64,000 bases of DNA from the NCBI RefSeq assembly GCF_009914755.1, contig NC_060938.1. The stretch is one strand, 5' to 3'. Both the position numbers and the translations under genes were made by a program. Positions 1 to 54,922 of the stretch are shown piece after piece. The stretch comes from the human T2T-CHM13v2.0 reference genome, Homo sapiens. How positions within the stretch are numbered: position 1 is the stretch's first letter; each line of letters starts with the position of its first letter. The notes beneath the pieces were generated by a model. It saw only the letters and a list, made by a program, of their open reading frames with translations, had not been told where the DNA came from and ran no database searches.

Positions 1-1303
1 CAGCAATTCGGTCACATCCTCAGGATGCCCATGGAATTCTAGTTCTCTTGCTATTCCCACATCTGCAATGACTTCCTCCACTGAAGTCCTGAACCCCTCA
101 AAGTCATCTACTAGGGTTGGTATCAACTTCTTTCATACTCCTGTTAGTACTGATATTTTGACCTTCTCCCATGAATCACAAATGTTCTTAATGGCATCTA
201 GAATGGTGAGTCCTTTCCAGAAGGTTTTCAATTTACTTTGCCCAGATCCATCAGAGGAATCACTATATGTGGCAGCAATAGCCTTAGAAAATGTATTTCT
301 TAAATTATAAGACTTGAAAGTCTAAATTATTCCTTGGCCCATGGGCTGCAGAATGAATGTTGGTGTTAGCAGGCATGAAAACAATGTTAATCTCCTTGTA
401 CATCTTCATCAGAGCTCATAGGTGATCAGGTGCATTGTCATTGAGCAGTCATATTTTGAGAAGAATCATTTTTTCTCTGCAGTAGGTCTCAACAGTGGGT
501 TTAAATTTTCAGTAAACCAGATGTGCTCTTTACTGTAAACCAGTAAACAGATGTGCTGTCATTCAAGCCTTGTTATTTCATTTATAGAAATAATGAAATG
601 TTATTTCATTTATAGAAATAGTGAAATGTTATTTCATTTATAGAAATAGTGAAATGTTATTTCATTTATAGGAAGAGTTGATTTAGCATGATTCTTAAGA
701 GCCTGAGGATTTTCAAAATGGTAAATGAGCATTGGCTTCAACTTAAAGTCACCAGTTGCATTAGCCCTTAACAAGAGAGTTCAGCCTGTCCTCTGAAGCT
801 TAGAAACCAGGTATTGACTCCTCCTCTCCAGCTGTGAAAGCCGTAGGTAGCATTTTCTTCCACTAGAAAGCTGTTGTGTCTCCACTGAAAATCTGTTGTT
901 TAGTGTAGCCGCCTTCCTCAGTGATCTTAGCTAGATCTTCTGGATAACTTGCTGCAACTTCTGTATCAGCACGTGCTCCTTCACCTTGTACTTTATTTTT
1001 TATTTTTATTTTTTTAAATACCCCTTGGTGATCTGCACACCTTGTACTTTTATGTTATAGGATGACTTCTTTCCTTAAACCTCATGAACTAACCTCTGCT
1101 AGCATCAAACTTCTCTTCTGCAGCTTCCTCACCTCTCTCAGGCTTCAGAGAATAGAAGAGAGTTAAGACCTTGCTCTGACTAGGCTTTGGCTGAAGGGAC
1201 TGTTATGGCTGGTTTGTTCTTCTATCCAGACCACTCAAACTTTTTCCAACTTAGCAATAAGACTGTTTTTCTTTCTTATCATTTGTGTGTTCCCTGAAGT
1301 AGC
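1..1303 (-). mobile_element. Tigger1 (TcMar-Tigger) DNA transposon, decayed internal transposase fragment
   Basis: The reverse strand resembles Tigger1/TIGD1 transposase coding sequence ([36 protein letters not shown] motifs) with stops and indels. Confidence 0.85.
571..671. repeat. 28-bp minisatellite, ~3.6 copies (tgttatttcatttatagaaatartgaaa) inside Tigger1
   Basis: Units start at 571, 599, 627 and 655. Confidence 0.9.
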
Positions 1304-26210: not shown

Positions 26211-26908
26211 AAGAAAGTATATGGACAAGTGTGGAGAGGTTGGAATGAGTTTGTTCCTTAGGGACAGAGGTCCTTCCCCTGAGTTTGTCCAGGGCAGCTG
26301 AGGGGCAGCCAGGCAGGGGGTCTCTGCTGGTCTTCTCAAATCCCTACACCTTCCACTATCTTGTATGTGAGAGGCTCTGACAAGCACATTGATCTGGGAA
26401 GATTCATGCCTGGGTGTCTATTCTCCCATTTTTATTGTTCCCCCTGAAGTGTTCACCTGTTACTTTTTTTATTGTCATTATAATACACATTTATTGTAAA
26501 ATTTGGAGTGTACAGAAAAGTGCAAAGAAGGAGAAAGAAATCACTTCATCTCAGGATGAATTGCCACAGTTGTTTCAGTTTCCACTCACACCTGCAGAAT
26601 AGGAGAGCTCCGGTTCTTCCTCATCCTCCCCAGGCCTTGGTAGTGTCAGCCTCCATCGTGACACCCATGGGGATGGGCTCTCACTGTTCAATTTACCATT
26701 CCCCGATCCTCACGCTGTTGAGAATCTTTTCACATGCTCACAGCCATGTGGAGATCCACAGTAAGAAGCGCCAGGTCAAGCTTCTTGCTTATTTCCCTAT
26801 TCATTGTCTGGTCTTTTCCTTATCGGTGTGTACACTGTGCTTATGAGCCCTTTGTTGGGTGTGTGTGTAAAAATATCTTCTCCCACTCAGGGCTTGTGCT
26901 TTCATTCT

Positions 26909-27024
26909 TTTTTTTCTTTTCTTTCTTTCTTTTTTTTTTTTTTTTTGAGGCAGGTTCTCGCTCTGTCGCCCAGACTGGAGTGCAGTGGTGTGATCTTGGC
27001 TCACTGCAGCCTCCACCTCCCGGG
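26909..27024 (-). mobile_element. 5'-truncated Alu (partial right arm)
   Basis: TSD gctttcattct at 26898-908 and 27028-38. Confidence 0.9.
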
Positions 27025-29251: not shown

Positions 29252-29858
29252 GGAGACAGAGTCTTGCTCTGTCGCCCAGGCTGTAGTGCAGTGGCACAAT
29301 CTTGGCTCACTGCAGCCTCTGCCCCCCCGCCACCAGGTTCCAGCGATTCTCCTGCCTCAGCCTCCTGGGTAGCTGGGATTACAGGTGCACACCACCACGC
29401 CTGGCTAATTTTATTTATTTTATTTTATTTTATTTTATTTTTTTTGAGACGGAGTCTTGCTCTGTCACCCAGGCTGGAGCACAGTGGTGCGACCTTGGCC
29501 CACTGCAGCCTCTGACTCCTGGGTTCAAGTGATTCCTCTGCCTCAGCCCCCCAAGTAGCTGGGACTACAGGCGCCCGCCTGGCTTTTTTGTATTTTTAGT
29601 AGAGACGGGGTTTCACCATGTTGGCCAGGATGGTCTCAATCTCTTGACCTTGTGATCCACCTGCCTCGGCCTCCCAAAGTGCTGGGATTACAGGCGTGAG
29701 CCACCACACCCGGCCACACCTGGCTAATTTTTGTATTTTTAGTAGAGACAGGGTTTTGCCAGTTTGGCCAGGCTGGTCTCAAACTCCTGACCTAGGTGAT
29801 CTGCCTGCCTTGACCTCCCAAAGTGCTGGGATTACAGGCGTGAGCCACCATGCCTGGC
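29226..29858 (-). mobile_element. Alu with a second Alu (29413-29715) nested in its central A-rich linker
   Basis: Outer TSD ccttagggac; inner TSD ac(g/a)cctggctaattt. Confidence 0.9.
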
Positions 29859-37340: not shown

Positions 37341-38030
<690 letters not shown>

Positions 38031-38556
38031 TTTACTGCATTTCCTGCCTTTTAACAGCTGTGTCATTGTCCAGGGTGGACTGAGTCACAGCTTTATTTAT
38101 CCATTCGCCTGTGGCGCCATTGGCTTTCCCCATTTTCTCCATGTAGTAAATGCTGCAGCAGCAGTGGCCATCTGTAAACATGTAAACGCGGGTGTTCAGG
38201 GAATGGGGCTGCTGGAATCTGGGCTCCAGCATTTCTTCTCTTTTAAATTTTGATAGATTGTTATGATAGTGGGCGTAACTGTTTTCATTCTCTGGGGAGC
38301 TTTGCCCCCCGCCCCCAGCCTCAGACCATTCCTCCTGCTGTAACAAGTGAGAAGCAGTTGGGGTGAGTAGGGCCTGTTTGGGGGAATGAGATGTCCCTGG
38401 TGGACTAGGTTGGCCAGTGTCCCCAAAGCAACAGGTGTCCCTGGGAGAGATAGGGCATGACCACATGTGTGGTTGCTACATCCAGAAAAATGTGACCTAC
38501 TAAAAGTGTTAACATGGGCCAGGTATTACCAGCTCCATTGTACAAATAAGAAACTG

Positions 38557-41126
38557 TTTATTTAAAATTATTTTTATTTTATTATTATTATTTTATTTTA
38601 TTATTAATATAATTATTATTTTATTTTATTTTATTATAATAAAATAAATTATATTTTATTTTATATTATATTATATTATATTATTATAAAATAAATTATC
38701 TTTATTTTATTATTATTATAAAATAAATTATCTTTATTTTATTATTATTATAAAATAAATTATCTTTATTTTATTATTATTATAAAATAAATTATCTTTA
38801 TTTTATTATTATAATAAAATAAATTATCTTTATTTTATTATTATAAAATAAATTATCTTTATTTTATTATTATAAAATAAATTATCTTTATTTTATTATT
38901 ATAAAATAAATTATCTTTATTTTATTATTATAAAATAAATTATCTTTATTTTATTATTATAAAATAAATTATCTTTATTTTATTATTATAAAATAAATTA
39001 TCTTTATTTTATTATTATAAAATAAATTATCTTTATTTTATTATTATAAAATAAATTATCTTTATTTTATTATTATAAAATAAATTATCTTTATTTTATT
39101 ATTATAAAATAAATTATCTTTATTTTATTATTATAAAATAAATTATCTTTATTTTATTATTATAAAATAAATTATCTTTATTTTATTATTATAAAATAAA
39201 TTATCTTTATTTTATTATTATAAAATAAATTATCTTTATTTTATTATAAAATAAATTATCTTTATTTTATTATAAAATAAATTATCTTTATTTTATTATA
39301 AAATAAATTATCTTTATTTTATTATAAAATAAATTATCTTTATTTTATTATAAAATAAATTATCTTTATTTTATTATAAAATAAATTATCTTTATTTTAT
39401 TATAAAATAAATTATCTTTATTTTATTATAAAATAAATTATCTTTATTTTATTATAAAATAAATTATCTTTATTTTATTATAAAATAAATTATCTTTATT
39501 TTATTATAAAATAAATTATCTTTATTTTATTATAAAATAAATTATCTTTATTTTATTATAAAATAAATTATCTTTATTTTATTATAAAATAAATTATCTT
39601 TATATTATTATAAAATAAATTATCTTTATATTATTATAAAATAAATTATCTTTATTTTATTATAAAATAAATTATCTTTATTTTATTATAAAATAAATTA
39701 TCTTTATTTTATTATAAAATAAATTATCTTTATTTTATTATAAAATAAATTATCTTTATTTTATTATAAAATAAATTATCTTTATTTTATTATAAAATAA
39801 ATTATCTTTATTTTATTATAAAATAAATTATCTTTATTTTATTATAAAATAAATTATCTTTATTTTATTATAAAATAAATTATCTTTATTTTATTATAAA
39901 ATAAATTATCTTTATTTTATTATAAAATAAATTATCTTTATTTTATTATAAAATAAATTATCTTTATTTTATTATAAAATAAATTATCTTTATTTTATTA
40001 TAAAATAAATTATCTTTATTTTATTATAAAATAAATTATCTTTATTTTATTATAAAATAAATTATCTTTATTTTATTATAAAATAAATTATCTTTATTTT
40101 ATTATAAAATAAATTATCTTTATTTTATTATAAAATAAATTATCTTTATTTTATTATAAAATAAATTATCTTTATTTTATTATAAAATAAATTATCTTTA
40201 TTTTATTATAAAATAAATTATCTTTATTTTATTATAAAATAAATTATCTTTATTTTATTATAAAATAAATTATCTTTATTTTATTATAAAATAAATTATC
40301 TTTATTTTATTATAAAATAAATTATCTTTATTTTATTATAAAATAAATTATCTTTATTTTATTATAAAATAAATTATCTTTATTTTATTATAAAATAAAT
40401 TATCTTTATTTTATTATAAAATAAATTATCTTTATTTTATTATAAAATAAATTATCTTTATTTTATTATAAAATAAATTATCTTTATTTTATTATAAAAT
40501 AAATTATCTTTATTTTATTATAAAATAAATTATCTTTATTTTATTATAAAATAAATTATCTTTATTTTATTATAAAATAAATTATCTTTATTTTATTATA
40601 AAATAAATTATCTTTATTTTATTATAAAATAAATTATCTTTATTTTATTATAAAATAAATTATCTTTATTTTATTATAAAATAAATTATCTTTATTTTAT
40701 TATAAAATAAATTATCTTTATTTTATTATAAAATAAATTATCTTTATTTTATTATAAAATAAATTATCTTTTTATTATTATAAAATAAATTATCTTTTTA
40801 TTATTATAAAATAAATTATCTTTATTTTATTATAAAATAAATTATCTTTATTTTATTATAAAATAAATTATCTTTATTTTATTATAAAATAAATTATCTT
40901 TATTTTATTATAAAATAAATTATCTTTATTTTATTATAAAATAAATTATCTTTATTTTATTATAAAATAAATTATCTTTATTTTATTATTATAAAATAAA
41001 TTATCTTTATTATTATAAAATAAATTATCTTTATTTTATTATTATAATAAATTATCTTTATTTTATTATAATAAAATAAATTATCTTTATTTTATTATTA
41101 TTTTATTTTATTATTTTATTATTATT
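38557..41126. repeat. AT-rich minisatellite/VNTR: 4x32-bp, 14x29-bp and 67x26-bp units (tttattttattataaaataaattatc) plus degenerate edges
   Basis: Directly counted periodicity: 38701-38828 (32-mers), 38829-39234 (29-mers), 39235-40976 (26-mers); no G on the + strand for 2570 nt. Confidence 0.98.
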
Positions 41127-41721
<595 letters not shown>

Positions 41722-41974
41722 TAAGATGATTTTAAATCATGTTAGCAATGCATAATTATTATAAAAATTTGAAACAAACCCCCTTAACGTCTCTGAAATA
41801 ACTCTAATGACATCTTACATAGCCTTCTGGAAATTATTTCTATGTATATTTCTATGTCACTGTGTGTGTTTGTGTGTATTCCCAAGTGGAATAATGAACA
41901 TTATTGAATACCCTTTCTTTGCCAGGATACGTAAACATGAAATTTTTTTTTTAAACTTTCAAGAGCTGGAAGAG

Positions 41975-42110
41975 TAGAGTGGTTAGAAGCGTAGACTCTG
42001 GAGCCAGATTGCCAGGGTTTGAATCCCAGTTCTGCCACTTATTGGCATGTGACCTTTGGTGAATTATTTAACCTCTCTGTGCCTCTGTGTCTTCACCTTT
42101 ACATGAGACC
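41975..42110 (+). mobile_element. MIR
   Basis: gactctggagccagattgccagggtttgaatcccagttctgccactta...aacctctctgtgcctc. Confidence 0.75.
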
Positions 42111-42127
42111 ACTAGGGGTAGGGTAGG

Positions 42128-42590
42128 TATATTCGGTTCCTAGGGCTGCAGTAGCAGGTTACCACTAACTTTGCAGCTTAAAGCAGCAGAAATTTATTTT
42201 CTTGTGGTTCTCAAGGCCAGAAATCCAAAACCAAGGTTTCAGCTGGGCAGGTTCCATCTGGAGGCTCTAAGGGAGGATCCGTCCCATGCCTCTCCCCGAG
42301 CTCCTGGTAGTGGCTGTCTACCTCTGGCACTCCTTGGCTCGGGGCATCATAACTCCAGTCTCTACCTCTGCCTTCACACGGACCTCATCTGTGTCTCTCT
42401 GTGCCTTTCCTTCTTATAGGGACACCTCTCATTGGAGTTAGGGCCCACTCTAAACTTAGGATGATCTCATCTCAGTAGCCCTAAATTATATCTGCAAAGA
42501 AAAAGATCCTTTTTCCAAATAAGGTCACATGTACAAGTACTGGGGTTAGGATTTGCACATATCTTCTCGGGGGACACAATTCAACCTCTG
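42128..42590 (-). mobile_element. MLT1-type MaLR LTR
   Basis: cagaaatttattttctt...tttccaaataaggtcaca...gggacacaattcaacc. Confidence 0.75.
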
Positions 42591-45660: not shown

Positions 45661-47907
45661 GTTGGAAATAATCTTGGGAGGAAGAAATAGACCCTGAAGG
45701 AGGTGCAGGTGGACAGAGCAGCATGAGCGTGGGCTCCAGGTGGAGAAGTGCATGTTCTGTTGGGTGATGGAGTGGAGCCCTTTGTAGGGGGTGTCTGGGG
45801 TTGAGGGGCAGAGGCCCAGAAAGGGAATGCCTTAAACATGAAGGGACTGGACCGGATTCTTTAGGCAGTGGAATCCATTGCAAGTTTTAGAGCAGGAAGG
45901 GATGTGATCACAAGACAGTGAGATGTACAGTCCTCGTGATGTTGGAGCCTGGGGCAGAGTTTCCACTCAGTCAGTCACCCTGAGAGCAGCAGCCTCGTGC
46001 TTCAGGATGCAGGTGGGGCTGCCGGGCTGGGAAGCAGGTTTATCTCTGTGGATTCCTGCAGACCCTCCTGGGCCCTGAGACCACCCAGGTCCCCCCAGAT
46101 CTTCATGGGCCCATTTATTCTTGCCAAGGAAGCCTGAGCACAGGGCTAGGCATGTAGCTAGCTGGAAGCCCAGCCCTGGGGAGTGCTTGTACATGTGGAT
46201 TTAGGGCCAATGCTCCCTGTGGCTCCAGATGCTCATGGGGCCCTCCCCCTACCCCCTCTGCTCTCACCTCCTGCCACTCTCACCCTTCTCTCATTGTCCC
46301 TCCTTGCACTTGCTCCAGGAGCAGGAATTGCAGGCTTGGGAGTTTGCTCTTCCTTCTGCCTGGACATCTCTTCCCCAGATACCTGCAGCCAGGCACTTAT
46401 TCCACAGTCACCTTTTCCGGGTGTCTTCCCTGGCCACCCAGTTTGGAACTGTCCCCCATCCCTGGGACCCTTTCCTCTTCCTCTTTGGCAGTATTACCAT
46501 CTAACATCCTCTAGTCACCTATTTGCCTTGTTTATTGCCCGCCTCTTCCCCTAGAATGTAAATACCGTGAAGGTTTTGGGTTTTTTTTAACTGTTTTGTT
46601 CACTGCTCTAACCTGTGCCTGGAACAGCATTTGACATTGGCAGGTCCACAGAAACTAAGCACAGCCCGAGTGAATGAGAGGCCCACTCCCTCATTACTCC
46701 CAGAACCTCTCTGTTTGATCGCAGCTTTGGTTCTGCAGGTAAAAAAAAAAAAAAAAAAAATGGGGATGAGCCCAGGTCACACCTAGGGCCACCCAGCAAA
46801 TGGAGAAGCTTCCTTCTCCCAGTCCCCATTGCACAGATGAGGAAACAGACCTTGAGGGGGAAAGGACTTGGCCAAGTGCTAAGCCATAGTTCGTGGCAAA
46901 GAAGAAATGAAGCTGATTGCCCTCAATCCCTGCTATTGAAAGTCCTAACTGGCCCGGGGGAGGCTGGGGCCCAAGCAGGGATGTTTAAGGATGATTATAG
47001 CGTCTTTTGGTGCCAGAACATATCTTTGTGTTTCCAAGTGGGGTTAGAGGAGCCTGCAGCCCAGGGGTTTCTTTTCTTTTCTGGGAAATTCAGACCTCCA
47101 TCATTTTAACTTTTCCCAGACGAGATGCTGGGACCACACTCAGGGCCTGGGAAGTGGTTGCATCAGTATCAGCCAGGCCGCCCTGGCCTTGAGCTCCAAA
47201 TGAGATTGTTCGGCCTCAATTCCACAGCCTGTGGACTTCCACAGAGCCATCCTACCCCGCCCCCACCAGCCCCAGGATTCCTGCCATTCCCCGGGACACT
47301 CATATTTTCCTGGTGACCTGGCTCCTTCTTCTAGGTAGGCTGAAGGCTGTGGACCGAAAGGGGAAATCCACAGGCAGCCGGGAGCACACACAACATTCGT
47401 GAGAGTCAGGGCCCCCCGGAGGATGTGGGAGGGAATTTTCTCCCCGGGTACAGACTTCACACTGACCTTGACACACCCCTCCTCATGACAGGCAGTCCCA
47501 GTCAGTTCTCTCGAAAACCACTGCTCAAAATTCACAACACTGCTGCCCCTGTTTAATACAGCGCTGCCTGACCCCTCCACCACCCTGAGAACCCCCAGGA
47601 CCCCTACAGCCCTGCCTTCAGGGGTGGTTCCACTTTCCTGTGCCCTTTTACAGGGCTTACCCTGGCCTCGTCCCCTGCCTTCCCCAAGGGGCTCCTTACA
47701 GCACATGCCCTGGATGCTTCTGGAACCAATGCCAACCTTGATCCCTGGTACCCCTGGGCAACATCACAGAGACACAGGGCAAGATGGAAGGCACCATCCA
47801 CAGCTTCATGGCTTTCTGGGTACCCTTGTCTGTGTGATTAAGGTTTTCACCCCTGCAGGTACCTTGAGAGACTTGGTGCCTTAGGTAGAATGCACACAGA
47901 CCTTCTG

Positions 47908-54366: not shown

Positions 54367-54922
<556 letters not shown>

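What the first reader, a model, noticed from the sequence alone, without database searches (positions are those of the whole stretch)
38557..41126. 2.57-kb palindromic AT-rich minisatellite in RIN3 intron 1, resembling fragile-site repeats
Seen: the 26-bp unit is itself a fold-back, tttattttat-t-ataaaataaa (10-bp perfect inverted repeat) plus ttatc, repeated about 90 times with very few variants. There is no G on the + strand for 2570 nt. Known: the AT-rich minisatellites at the rare fragile sites FRA16B and FRA10B contain inverted repeats, and palindromic AT-rich repeats form cruciforms. The RIN3/SLC24A4 region is a GWAS locus for Alzheimer's disease, Paget's disease of bone and lung function. 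Inference: the homogeneity suggests a recent expansion and a length-polymorphic allele that short reads cannot resolve. It could act as a cruciform or DNA-unwinding element and be a hidden functional variant. My unverified recollection is that GRCh38 intron 1 is about 2 kb shorter than the 43.9 kb seen here.
Basis: partly seen in the sequence, partly recalled or inferred. Interest (0 to 1): 0.85.

Follow-up and report, generated by a model that had tools for sequence, protein, structure and literature searches.

The report
Alu-tail-born AT-rich hairpin minisatellite, RIN3
A 2.5-kb run of about 90 nearly identical, hairpin-forming A/T-only repeat units grew out of the tail of an old Alu element inside the first intron of RIN3; it is a striking example of a known kind of unstable repeat, with no evidence yet that it does anything.

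Summary
Window 38557-41126 (T2T-CHM13 chr14:86,776,557-86,779,126) is a 2,570-nt run with no G on the + strand and 96.5% A+T. It holds 90 C-delimited units, 63 of them one identical 26-mer whose first 21 nt are a 10-nt inverted repeat around one T.

The array lies exactly where the A-tail of a minus-strand Alu (41127-41409) should be, inside that Alu's target-site duplication. The unit occurs nowhere else in the genome, so it arose in place.

It folds far better than shuffles (z = -12.4). Its predicted energy per base is lower than that of the FRA16B repeat taken from the same genome. It shares no sequence with FRA16B beyond composition.

At 2.57 kb it is about half the >5 kb at which FRA10B is reported fragile. 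Its interrupted symmetry favours replication hairpins over duplex cruciforms.

Length polymorphism, a shorter GRCh38 allele, linkage to GWAS signals and any effect on RIN3 could not be tested here.

Verdict: a new member of a known kind, an Alu-tail-derived AT-rich hairpin minisatellite. It is probably neutral and unstable. Interest is moderate to low.

The parts
38559..38572 (-). Distal copy of the target-site duplication (minus-strand reading AATAATTTTAAATA), 12 of 14 identical to the two copies at 41410-41423 and 41718-41731; marks the outer end of the Alu tail
   Evidence: only 5 14-mers within 2 mismatches of the site on both strands of the 64-kb window; 3 of them are the three predicted boundaries, all on the minus strand.
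38573..38700 (-). Degenerate leader: (TTTTA)n/(TTA)n-type simple repeats with proto-units, including a near-copy of the 29-nt variant unit that recurs at the other edge; residue of the original tail microsatellite
   Evidence: segment A.
38701..38828 (-). Four 32-nt units (3 identical + 1 variant); 10-nt arms with a 7-nt (TTA-type) centre
38829..39234 (-). Fourteen identical 29-nt units (4-nt centre)
39235..40976 (-). Core block of 67 units of 26 nt: 63 identical (TTTATTTTATTATAAAATAAATTATC on +) plus two adjacent pairs of variants (39599-39650; 40769-40820) that break the left arm without compensation
   Evidence: 6 mismatched nt of 1,742.
40977..41085 (-). Edge variants: units of 29, 24, 27 and 29 nt
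   Evidence: types D, H, I, J.
41086..41126 (-). 41-nt T-rich (A-rich on the Alu strand) simple-repeat remnant of the tail, directly abutting the Alu 3' end
41127..41409 (-). Alu 1, the element whose A-tail became the array (283 nt, 2 CpG left)
   Evidence: (Metazoa_SRP sub-threshold hit 41125-41272, minus strand, E 3.6e-13).
41410..41423 (-). Middle copy of the 14-nt target site (5' flank of Alu 1 = 3' flank of Alu 2)
   Evidence: exact.
41424..41717 (-). Alu 2 with a short unexpanded tail (41424-41435), inserted at the same target site
   Evidence: 80.2% identical to Alu 1 over 278 aligned pairs.
41718..41731 (-). Proximal copy of the 14-nt target site, preceded by TT|AAAA
   Evidence: exact.

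Best explanation
The array is an AT-rich minisatellite (VNTR) that arose in place from the poly(A) tail of an old minus-strand Alu in RIN3 intron 1. Shown: the array fills the tail position between the Alu 3' end and the distal target-site duplication. Both of its edges keep degenerate (AAAAT)n/(AAT)n-type tail microsatellite. The unit exists nowhere else in the genome. Inferred: the tail decayed into A-rich microsatellites. A local fold-back or template-switch event then created an inverted copy, giving a unit with two 10-nt complementary arms plus the spacer TTATC. The unit was amplified in whole-unit steps by replication slippage at hairpins and/or unequal sister-chromatid exchange. The centre of the hairpin shrank in 3-nt steps (7, 4, 1 nt), which produced ordered blocks of 32-, 29- and 26-nt units. 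The 26-nt unit is the most amplified. Its 21-nt core is itself nearly palindromic, so neighbouring units pair across the TTATC spacer (21-nt arms, one T.T mismatch), and the whole array can fold back at two centres per unit. When single-stranded, at replication or in the pre-mRNA, it should form many alternative hairpins. By analogy with FRA16B these would stall polymerases and keep the array unstable in length. It is most likely a selectively neutral, length-variable intronic repeat, below the size at which such repeats become cytogenetic fragile sites.
For: Position and origin: the array abuts the Alu 3' end at 41127, and both Alus are confirmed on the minus strand by SRP-model hits. There are three copies of one 14-nt target site, at 41718-41731, 41410-41423 (both exact) and 38559-38572 (12 of 14); these are 3 of the only 5 such near-matches in 128 kb of sequence searched. 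In situ growth: the exact 26-mer occurs 63 times forward and 0 times reverse in the whole genome, all in this array. The 25-nt junction word at up to 3 mismatches gives 147 forward and 55 reverse against controls of 60 and 56, so nothing beyond this array exceeds chance. Recent amplification: 63 of 67 26-nt units are identical; the variants occur as adjacent pairs; 0.34% of bases are mismatched, against 80.2% identity between the neighbouring Alus. Structure: 260 nt fold to -58.4 kcal/mol as DNA (z -12.4, 0 of 200 shuffles as good) and to -63.6 as RNA (z -12.3). There are 687 inverted pairs, with arms up to 937 nt at 76% complementarity and spacers of 1 or 5 nt. Two-unit fold-back energy per nt is -0.223 for 26-mers, -0.191 for 29-mers and -0.166 for 32-mers. 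Literature read as passages: Alu poly-A regions seed repeats and expansions (PMC8773600). A 921-bp FRA16B fragment forms structures, stalls polymerase and suffers deletions of 99-378 bp and a one-unit expansion in human cells (PMC2875025 Results). A survey of TE-derived minisatellites set a 40% GC floor to remove repeats derived from poly(dA)/poly(dT) tracts such as the 3' polyA of non-LTR retrotransposons (PMC3389668).
Against: The distal target-site copy has 2 mismatches of 14, and AT-rich sequence makes near-matches easier. No orthologous empty site or ape sequence could be examined. The step that created the inverted arm is inferred, not observed. There is no sign that the hairpin is maintained: the four variant 26-mers break the left arm without compensating changes. 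So the structure may be a by-product rather than the driver. The link between fold-back stability and copy number rests on three unit types only. Instability and polymorphism are inferred from one haplotype. Neutrality is assumed from the lack of annotation, not shown.
Confidence: 0.78

Rival explanations
1. One reading: a fragile-site-type repeat that extrudes cruciforms or acts as a DNA-unwinding element, and is a hidden functional variant behind RIN3/SLC24A4 GWAS signals.
For: AT-rich minisatellite with strong predicted structure, stronger per base than FRA16B from the same genome. Lowest duplex stability in the window (-0.89 against -1.37 kcal/mol per bp). The review PMC9714581 argues that various AT-rich motifs may become fragile when expanded. 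An AD-associated SLC24A4 variant is an mQTL for a CpG in RIN3 intron 1 (PMC11095439 passages), so intron 1 carries regulatory signal.
Against: 2.57 kb is below the >5 kb quoted for FRA10B and far below the 2,000 copies quoted for FRA16B. '14q32' occurs 0 times in that review. Homozygotes for FRA16B and FRA10B are reported as normal (PMC8744678 passages). PATRR work shows that cruciform extrusion at physiological salt needs length and perfect central symmetry, whereas here perfect arms are 10 nt. No RefSeq functional element overlaps the array; the nearest are 11.6 kb and 4.8 kb away. The searches RIN3 + 'tandem repeat' (25 papers, 15 listed), RIN3 + VNTR (11) and RIN3 + 'intron 1' (16, 15 listed) gave nothing about this array by title or abstract. 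The mQTL paper does not mention the repeat.
Confidence: 0.08
2. The array is a base-unpairing region (BUR) or matrix-attachment element: a very long 'ATC sequence context' bound by SATB1-type proteins that anchors chromatin in RIN3 intron 1.
For: BURs are described as about 200-300 bp with clusters of 25-50-bp segments holding only A, T and C on one strand, and at least 65% AT (PMC12490858 passages; PMC2148460 abstract). This array is 2,570 nt of uninterrupted A/T/C at 96.5% AT with minimal duplex stability.
Against: Only sequence-level criteria were tested. The paper stresses that BURs are identified empirically with chemical probes and that not every AT-rich sequence is one. About 240,000 BURs are reported in the genome studied there, so membership alone would not be special. 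The fold-back potential competes with simple unwinding.
Confidence: 0.15
3. The array acts at the RNA level: it puts 94 AAUAAA hexamers and about 2.5 kb of self-complementary A/U RNA into the RIN3 pre-mRNA, causing cryptic intronic polyadenylation or forming long imperfect dsRNA.
For: AATAAA occurs 94 times on the sense strand within 2.57 kb, against 0.46 per kb in the rest of the window. The RNA fold is one long fold-back at -63.6 kcal/mol per 260 nt, z -12.3.
Against: The RefSeq table for the window lists no transcript ending in or near the array. Helices are only 10 bp of A-U between mismatches and 5x5 loops. These motifs follow from base composition alone.
Confidence: 0.05
4. Assembly artefact: the array length or order is a mis-assembly of a shorter repeat.
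For: Long, near-identical tandem repeats are where assemblies err.
Against: The array has an ordered internal architecture (32, 29, 26-nt blocks, paired variants, distinct edge variants) and unique, interpretable flanks. From general knowledge, not tested here: 2.6 kb is far shorter than the long reads behind this assembly.
Confidence: 0.03

Closest known systems
Tandem repeats born in Alu poly(A) tails (for example the pentanucleotide repeats at RFC1, SCA10 and the FAME loci; PMC8773600)
   Same: Sits in the 3' A-tail of an old Alu inside an intron, within the target-site duplication. Edges carry (AAAAT)n/(AAT)n-type tail microsatellite. Large in-place amplification.
   Different: The unit is a 26-32-nt minisatellite with an internal inverted repeat, not a 5-nt microsatellite. 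No disease-type motif and no known phenotype.
FRA16B (33-bp) and FRA10B (~42-bp) AT-rich minisatellites of rare fragile sites
   Same: AT-rich minisatellite with unit length in the tens of bp, several unit-length variants in one array, and hairpin-prone single strands. In CHM13 the FRA16B array also mixes spacings of 26, 28 and 33 nt.
   Different: No sequence similarity beyond composition. FRA16B in CHM13 lies in a >=2.8-kb complex AT/TA-rich region, and no SRP/Alu-type hit was found in the 3-kb locus L011. The FRA16B fold is no better than shuffles (z -1.4) whereas this array gives z -12.4. This allele is 2.57 kb, below reported fragile sizes, and no fragile site is recorded here.
Palindromic AT-rich repeats (PATRR11, PATRR17, PATRR22)
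   Same: AT-rich and self-complementary, with predicted hairpin/cruciform potential.
   Different: PATRRs are single near-perfect palindromes of about 190-600 bp whose central symmetry is critical. This is a direct tandem array of short quasi-palindromes, with long arms only 76% complementary.
Base-unpairing regions / ATC sequence context (SATB1 targets)
   Same: Only A, T and C on one strand, high AT content, low duplex stability.
   Different: About ten times longer than a typical BUR, perfectly periodic and self-complementary. Binding and unwinding were not tested.

Membership tests
Alu poly(A)-tail-derived tandem repeat | Array directly abuts the 3' end of an Alu, in the tail position, A-rich on the Alu's strand | tested here: met
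   the Alu ends at 41127 and the array starts at 41126. On the minus strand the whole 2,570-nt interval has A 1409, T 1071, G 90.
Alu poly(A)-tail-derived tandem repeat | Array enclosed by the Alu's target-site duplication | tested here: met
   14-nt site exact at 41410-41423, and 12 of 14 at 38559-38572, the outer end of the array. Only 2 other near-matches on both strands of the 64-kb window.
Alu poly(A)-tail-derived tandem repeat | Amplified in place, not dispersed by a mobile element | tested here: met
   all 63 exact 26-mers lie in this array; elsewhere near-matches are at control level. Closed regions of the genome are not shown by the tool.
Alu poly(A)-tail-derived tandem repeat | Orthologous site in other primates shows the Alu with a shorter or simple tail | not testable with these tools
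AT-rich minisatellite rare fragile site (FRA16B/FRA10B type) | AT-rich minisatellite repeat | tested here: met
   period 26-32 nt, 96.5% A+T. FRA10B is quoted as 91% AT.
AT-rich minisatellite rare fragile site (FRA16B/FRA10B type) | Expanded allele of several kb to tens of kb (FRA10B >5 kb; FRA16B up to 2,000 copies) | tested here: not met
   2.57 kb and 90 units in this one haplotype. Thresholds are from PMC9714581. Other alleles are unknown.
AT-rich minisatellite rare fragile site (FRA16B/FRA10B type) | Cytogenetic gap or break induced by distamycin A or BrdU, inherited in Mendelian fashion | not testable with these tools
   The review PMC9714581 has 0 occurrences of '14q32'. That is only absence from one review.
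AT-rich minisatellite rare fragile site (FRA16B/FRA10B type) | Single strands form stable secondary structure that stalls replication | tested here: inconclusive
   In silico only: -58.4 kcal/mol per 260 nt, z -12.4, against FRA16B at -44.5. Stalling was shown experimentally for FRA16B only.
Palindromic AT-rich repeat (PATRR) | Single long, nearly perfect palindrome (about 190-600 bp) with central symmetry | tested here: not met
   the longest arms (937 nt) are only 76% complementary. Perfect arms are 10 nt. Definition from PMC1851657.
Base-unpairing region (ATC context) | At least 65% AT, with clustered 25-50-bp stretches of only A, T and C on one strand | tested here: met
   2,570 nt without G, 96.5% AT. 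Definition from PMC12490858.
Base-unpairing region (ATC context) | Unwinding under superhelical stress shown by chemical probes; SATB1 binding | not testable with these tools
   Only a nearest-neighbour stability estimate was made (energy table recalled).

The most novel reading that the evidence does not exclude
The array is a 'proto-fragile' hairpin minisatellite. Its longest human alleles would exceed about 5 kb and create an undescribed distamycin/BrdU-type rare fragile site at 14q32.12. Its length, invisible to short reads, would also modulate RIN3 expression, through replication or transcription blockage, chromatin anchoring or cryptic polyadenylation, and so contribute to the Alzheimer, Paget or lung-function signals at this locus.
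Probability: 0.04. Interest if true: 0.75.

Novelty: new member of a known kind. Interest (0 to 1): 0.3.

Why it matters
If only the well-supported part holds, this is a clean case of how an Alu tail turns into a large structured minisatellite. One array preserves the residual tail microsatellite, the stepwise shrinking of the hairpin centre, and the preferential amplification of the most self-complementary unit. At least one survey of transposon-derived minisatellites set a GC floor that removes such poly(A)-derived arrays (PMC3389668), so the class is under-catalogued.

It also gives an in-genome comparison: this unstudied array has a lower predicted fold energy than the repeat of the classical fragile site FRA16B, and unlike FRA16B it beats its shuffles. 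If long alleles exist, the locus would be a candidate new AT-rich fragile site and a variant that short reads cannot see, in a gene implicated in Alzheimer's disease, Paget's disease and lung function. Nothing found here supports that yet.

Tried and rejected
Coding potential: no ORF of 30 aa or more lies inside the array; the 2 listed only overlap its edges.

Known RNA families: an Rfam scan of 37500-42500 gave 10 hits, all sub-threshold SRP or Alu-derived miRNA-family matches inside Alus, and none in the array.

Dispersed repeat or satellite family: rejected, because the unit is unique to this locus.

Homology with FRA16B: rejected.

One large palindrome (PATRR-like): rejected.

Selection for the hairpin: no compensatory changes. 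The variant units simply break the left arm.

Literature: I used all 10 searches. The three RIN3 searches were RIN3 + 'tandem repeat' (25 papers, 15 listed), RIN3 + VNTR (11) and RIN3 + 'intron 1' (16, 15 listed). They returned nothing on this array, judged from titles and abstract starts only, except PMC11095439, which I read as passages. A search for a 16-nt stretch of the unit found 3 papers (2 listed), both on mouse regulatory T cells. I judged them unrelated from the listing and did not open them.

Comparison with GRCh38, other haplotypes, apes or reads was not possible with the tools on hand.

Alu subfamilies: from recalled diagnostic positions, Alu 1 looks AluJ-like and Alu 2 AluS-like. 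This was not tested, and I built no consensus.

The rough age argument (2-3 mutation events in 1,742 bp implying at most a few million years since the last homogenisation) uses a recalled human mutation rate and is only an order of magnitude.

They are numbers, not sequence.
Full report
What is there. Window 38557-41126 (T2T-CHM13 chr14:86,776,557-86,779,126) is a 2,570-nt stretch with no G on the + strand (T 1409, A 1071, C 90). It is the only run of 150 nt or more in the 64-kb window that lacks any one base. Tandem Repeats Finder reports 38565-41098, period 26, 94.8 copies, 96% matches and score 4146. The next best array in the window scores 428. Each unit contains exactly one C, so cutting after each C dissects the array. 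The pieces are, in order:
- a 144-nt degenerate leader
- four 32-nt units
- fourteen 29-nt units
- a block of 67 units of 26 nt (63 identical, plus two adjacent pairs of variants)
- units of 29, 24, 27 and 29 nt
- a 41-nt T-rich remnant

The 29- and 32-nt units differ only by 3 or 6 extra nt (TTA-type) at the centre of the inverted repeat. One correction applies: about a quarter of the units are not 26 nt, and the length classes lie in ordered blocks.

Where it came from. On the minus strand the sequence right of the array reads as two Alu elements, supported by sub-threshold signal-recognition-particle RNA hits on that strand. The order, in minus-strand reading, is:
- a 14-nt site (41731-41718)
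- Alu 2 with a short tail (41717-41424)
- the same 14-nt site (41423-41410)
- Alu 1 (41409-41127)
- the array (41126-38573)
- the site again with 2 mismatches (38572-38559)
- unique sequence

In the whole window, on both strands, only 5 14-mers come within 2 mismatches of this site, and 3 of them are these boundaries. The array therefore occupies the A-tail of Alu 1, inside its target-site duplication. Its two edges still look like decayed tail microsatellite. The exact 26-mer occurs 63 times in the genome, all here. A 25-nt junction word at up to 3 mismatches finds nothing elsewhere above the control level: 147 forward and 55 reverse, against 60 and 56 for the backwards control. So the array grew in place and is not part of a dispersed family. 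Alu poly-A regions are a recognised birthplace of repeats and of disease expansions (PMC8773600, passages). One survey of transposon-derived minisatellites set a 40% GC floor to remove repeats that derive from poly(dA)/poly(dT) tracts such as retrotransposon 3' polyA tails (PMC3389668, passages).

How recent. Within the 26-nt block, 6 of 1,742 nt differ from the modal unit, as two variant types that each occur as an adjacent pair. The two neighbouring Alus are 80.2% identical to each other (223 of 278 aligned pairs) and keep only 2 and 4 CpGs. The array is thus far more homogeneous than its old host element, which implies recent amplification or continuing homogenisation. I infer, but could not test, that its length varies among people.

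Structure. As single-stranded DNA, 260 nt of the core fold to -58.4 kcal/mol, against -27.1 +/- 2.5 for 200 dinucleotide shuffles (z -12.4, none as good). The preferred local fold is not the one-unit hairpin (-3.9 kcal/mol, z -2.5). It is a two-unit fold-back in which the 21-nt quasi-palindromic cores of neighbouring units pair across the TTATC loop (-11.6 kcal/mol per 52 nt). Because every unit offers two symmetry centres, the repeat finder reports 687 inverted pairs, with arms up to 937 nt at 76% complementarity. As RNA the same 260 nt form one long interrupted fold-back (-63.6 kcal/mol, z -12.3). Two-unit fold-back energy per nt is best for the 26-nt unit (-0.223), then the 29-nt (-0.191) and the 32-nt (-0.166). 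That ranking matches their copy numbers, but it is a correlation over three types only. The four variant 26-mers break the left arm without compensation, so there is no sign that the hairpin is under selection. Estimated duplex stability is the lowest in the window (-0.89 against -1.37 kcal/mol per bp; energy table recalled).

Comparison with fragile-site repeats. I took the FRA16B unit from the Introduction of PMC2875025 and located it in the same genome: 20 exact 30-mers plus 1 with one mismatch at chr16:71,116,536-71,117,176, spaced 26, 28 or 33 nt apart. They sit inside a >=2.8-kb complex AT/TA-rich region, and the RNA-family scan found no SRP/Alu-type hit in that 3-kb locus. A 260-nt FRA16B piece folds to -44.5 kcal/mol, no better than its shuffles (-41.2 +/- 2.4, z -1.4). 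The RIN3 array is therefore predicted to be more stable per base, and its stability comes from its order rather than its composition. The two units share nothing beyond composition (local score 41 against null 40.9 +/- 3.5; 160 of 300 shuffles as good).

Experimentally, a 921-bp FRA16B fragment forms branched structures, stalls polymerase, and suffers 99-378-bp deletions and a one-unit insertion in human cells (PMC2875025 Results). By analogy the RIN3 array should behave at least as badly at replication forks. Cytogenetic fragility, however, is reported for FRA10B repeats above 5 kb and for FRA16B at up to 2,000 copies, against 7-12 copies on normal chromosomes (PMC9714581, passages). This allele is 2.57 kb, and that review never mentions 14q32. 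Carriers homozygous for FRA16B or FRA10B are described as normal (PMC8744678, passages).

For duplex cruciforms, work on palindromic AT-rich repeats shows that extrusion at physiological salt needs long arms and perfect central symmetry. A 9-nt spacer plus four mismatches abolishes it (PMC1851657, passages). Here perfect arms are 10 nt. Hairpins on single strands, or plain unwinding, are therefore more plausible than stable cruciforms.

Other readings. The absence of G over 2.5 kb meets the sequence definition of the 'ATC context' of base-unpairing regions bound by SATB1 (PMC12490858 passages; PMC2148460 abstract). Such regions are defined empirically and are very numerous, so this is a lead and not a finding. 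On the RIN3 sense strand the array carries 94 AATAAA and 87 TATAAAA motifs. No annotated transcript ends there, and no RefSeq functional element overlaps it. The nearest are a reporter-assay silencer at 26726-26926 and an enhancer at 45971-46060. One paper links an Alzheimer-associated SLC24A4 variant to methylation of a CpG in RIN3 intron 1 and weakly to RIN3 expression (PMC11095439, passages). It says nothing of the repeat, and I could not place that CpG relative to the array.

What could not be done. GRCh38, other human haplotypes, apes and reads are out of reach here. The ordered internal architecture and clean flanks argue against an artefact. Supplementary tables of VNTR catalogues, which may list this locus, are closed.

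Verdict. This is a real, well-defined and unusually large and homogeneous Alu-tail-derived AT-rich hairpin minisatellite: a new member of a known kind. The resemblance to fragile-site repeats is structural, not genealogical, and the present allele is sub-threshold. Any function or disease relevance is speculative.

Noticed in passing
window 41410-41423, 41718-41731 and 38559-38572: Two Alus in tandem share one target site. The 14-nt site is present three times, so Alu 2 inserted at the same nick site (TT|AAAA) and with the same duplication length as Alu 1, exactly at Alu 1's 5' edge. Alu 2's tail stayed 12 nt long while Alu 1's became the 2.5-kb array.
   Followed up: partly
L011 (G000 chr16:71,115,036-71,118,065), array about 71,116,536-71,117,176: The FRA16B repeat in CHM13 has 21 hits of the published 30-mer (20 exact, 1 with one mismatch) at spacings of 26, 28 and 33 nt. 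That is more than the 7-12 copies quoted for normal chromosomes. It is embedded in a >=2.8-kb complex AT/TA-rich repeat region.
   Followed up: partly
window 54758-54922: An (AT)n dinucleotide repeat of about 80 copies (76% matches) in RIN3 intron 2, another self-complementary AT tract.
   Followed up: no
window 571-678: A 28-nt unit repeated 3.9 times (96% matches), upstream of RIN3.
   Followed up: no
window 29578-29850: A 143-nt unit repeated 1.9 times (87% matches). Its consensus reads like part of an Alu, so it looks like a partial Alu tandem duplication.
   Followed up: no
window 41147-41274, 41456-41515, 41605-41665, 37628-37679: Sub-threshold Rfam matches to mir-1268, mir-3135 and mir-1285 families lie inside Alu copies. 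All are far below the gathering scores and are best read as Alu-derived look-alikes.
   Followed up: no
window 38557-41126, + strand: The array adds 94 AATAAA and 87 TATAAAA motifs to the sense strand of RIN3 intron 1 (36.6 and 33.9 per kb, against 0.46 and 0.11 per kb in the rest of the window).
   Followed up: partly
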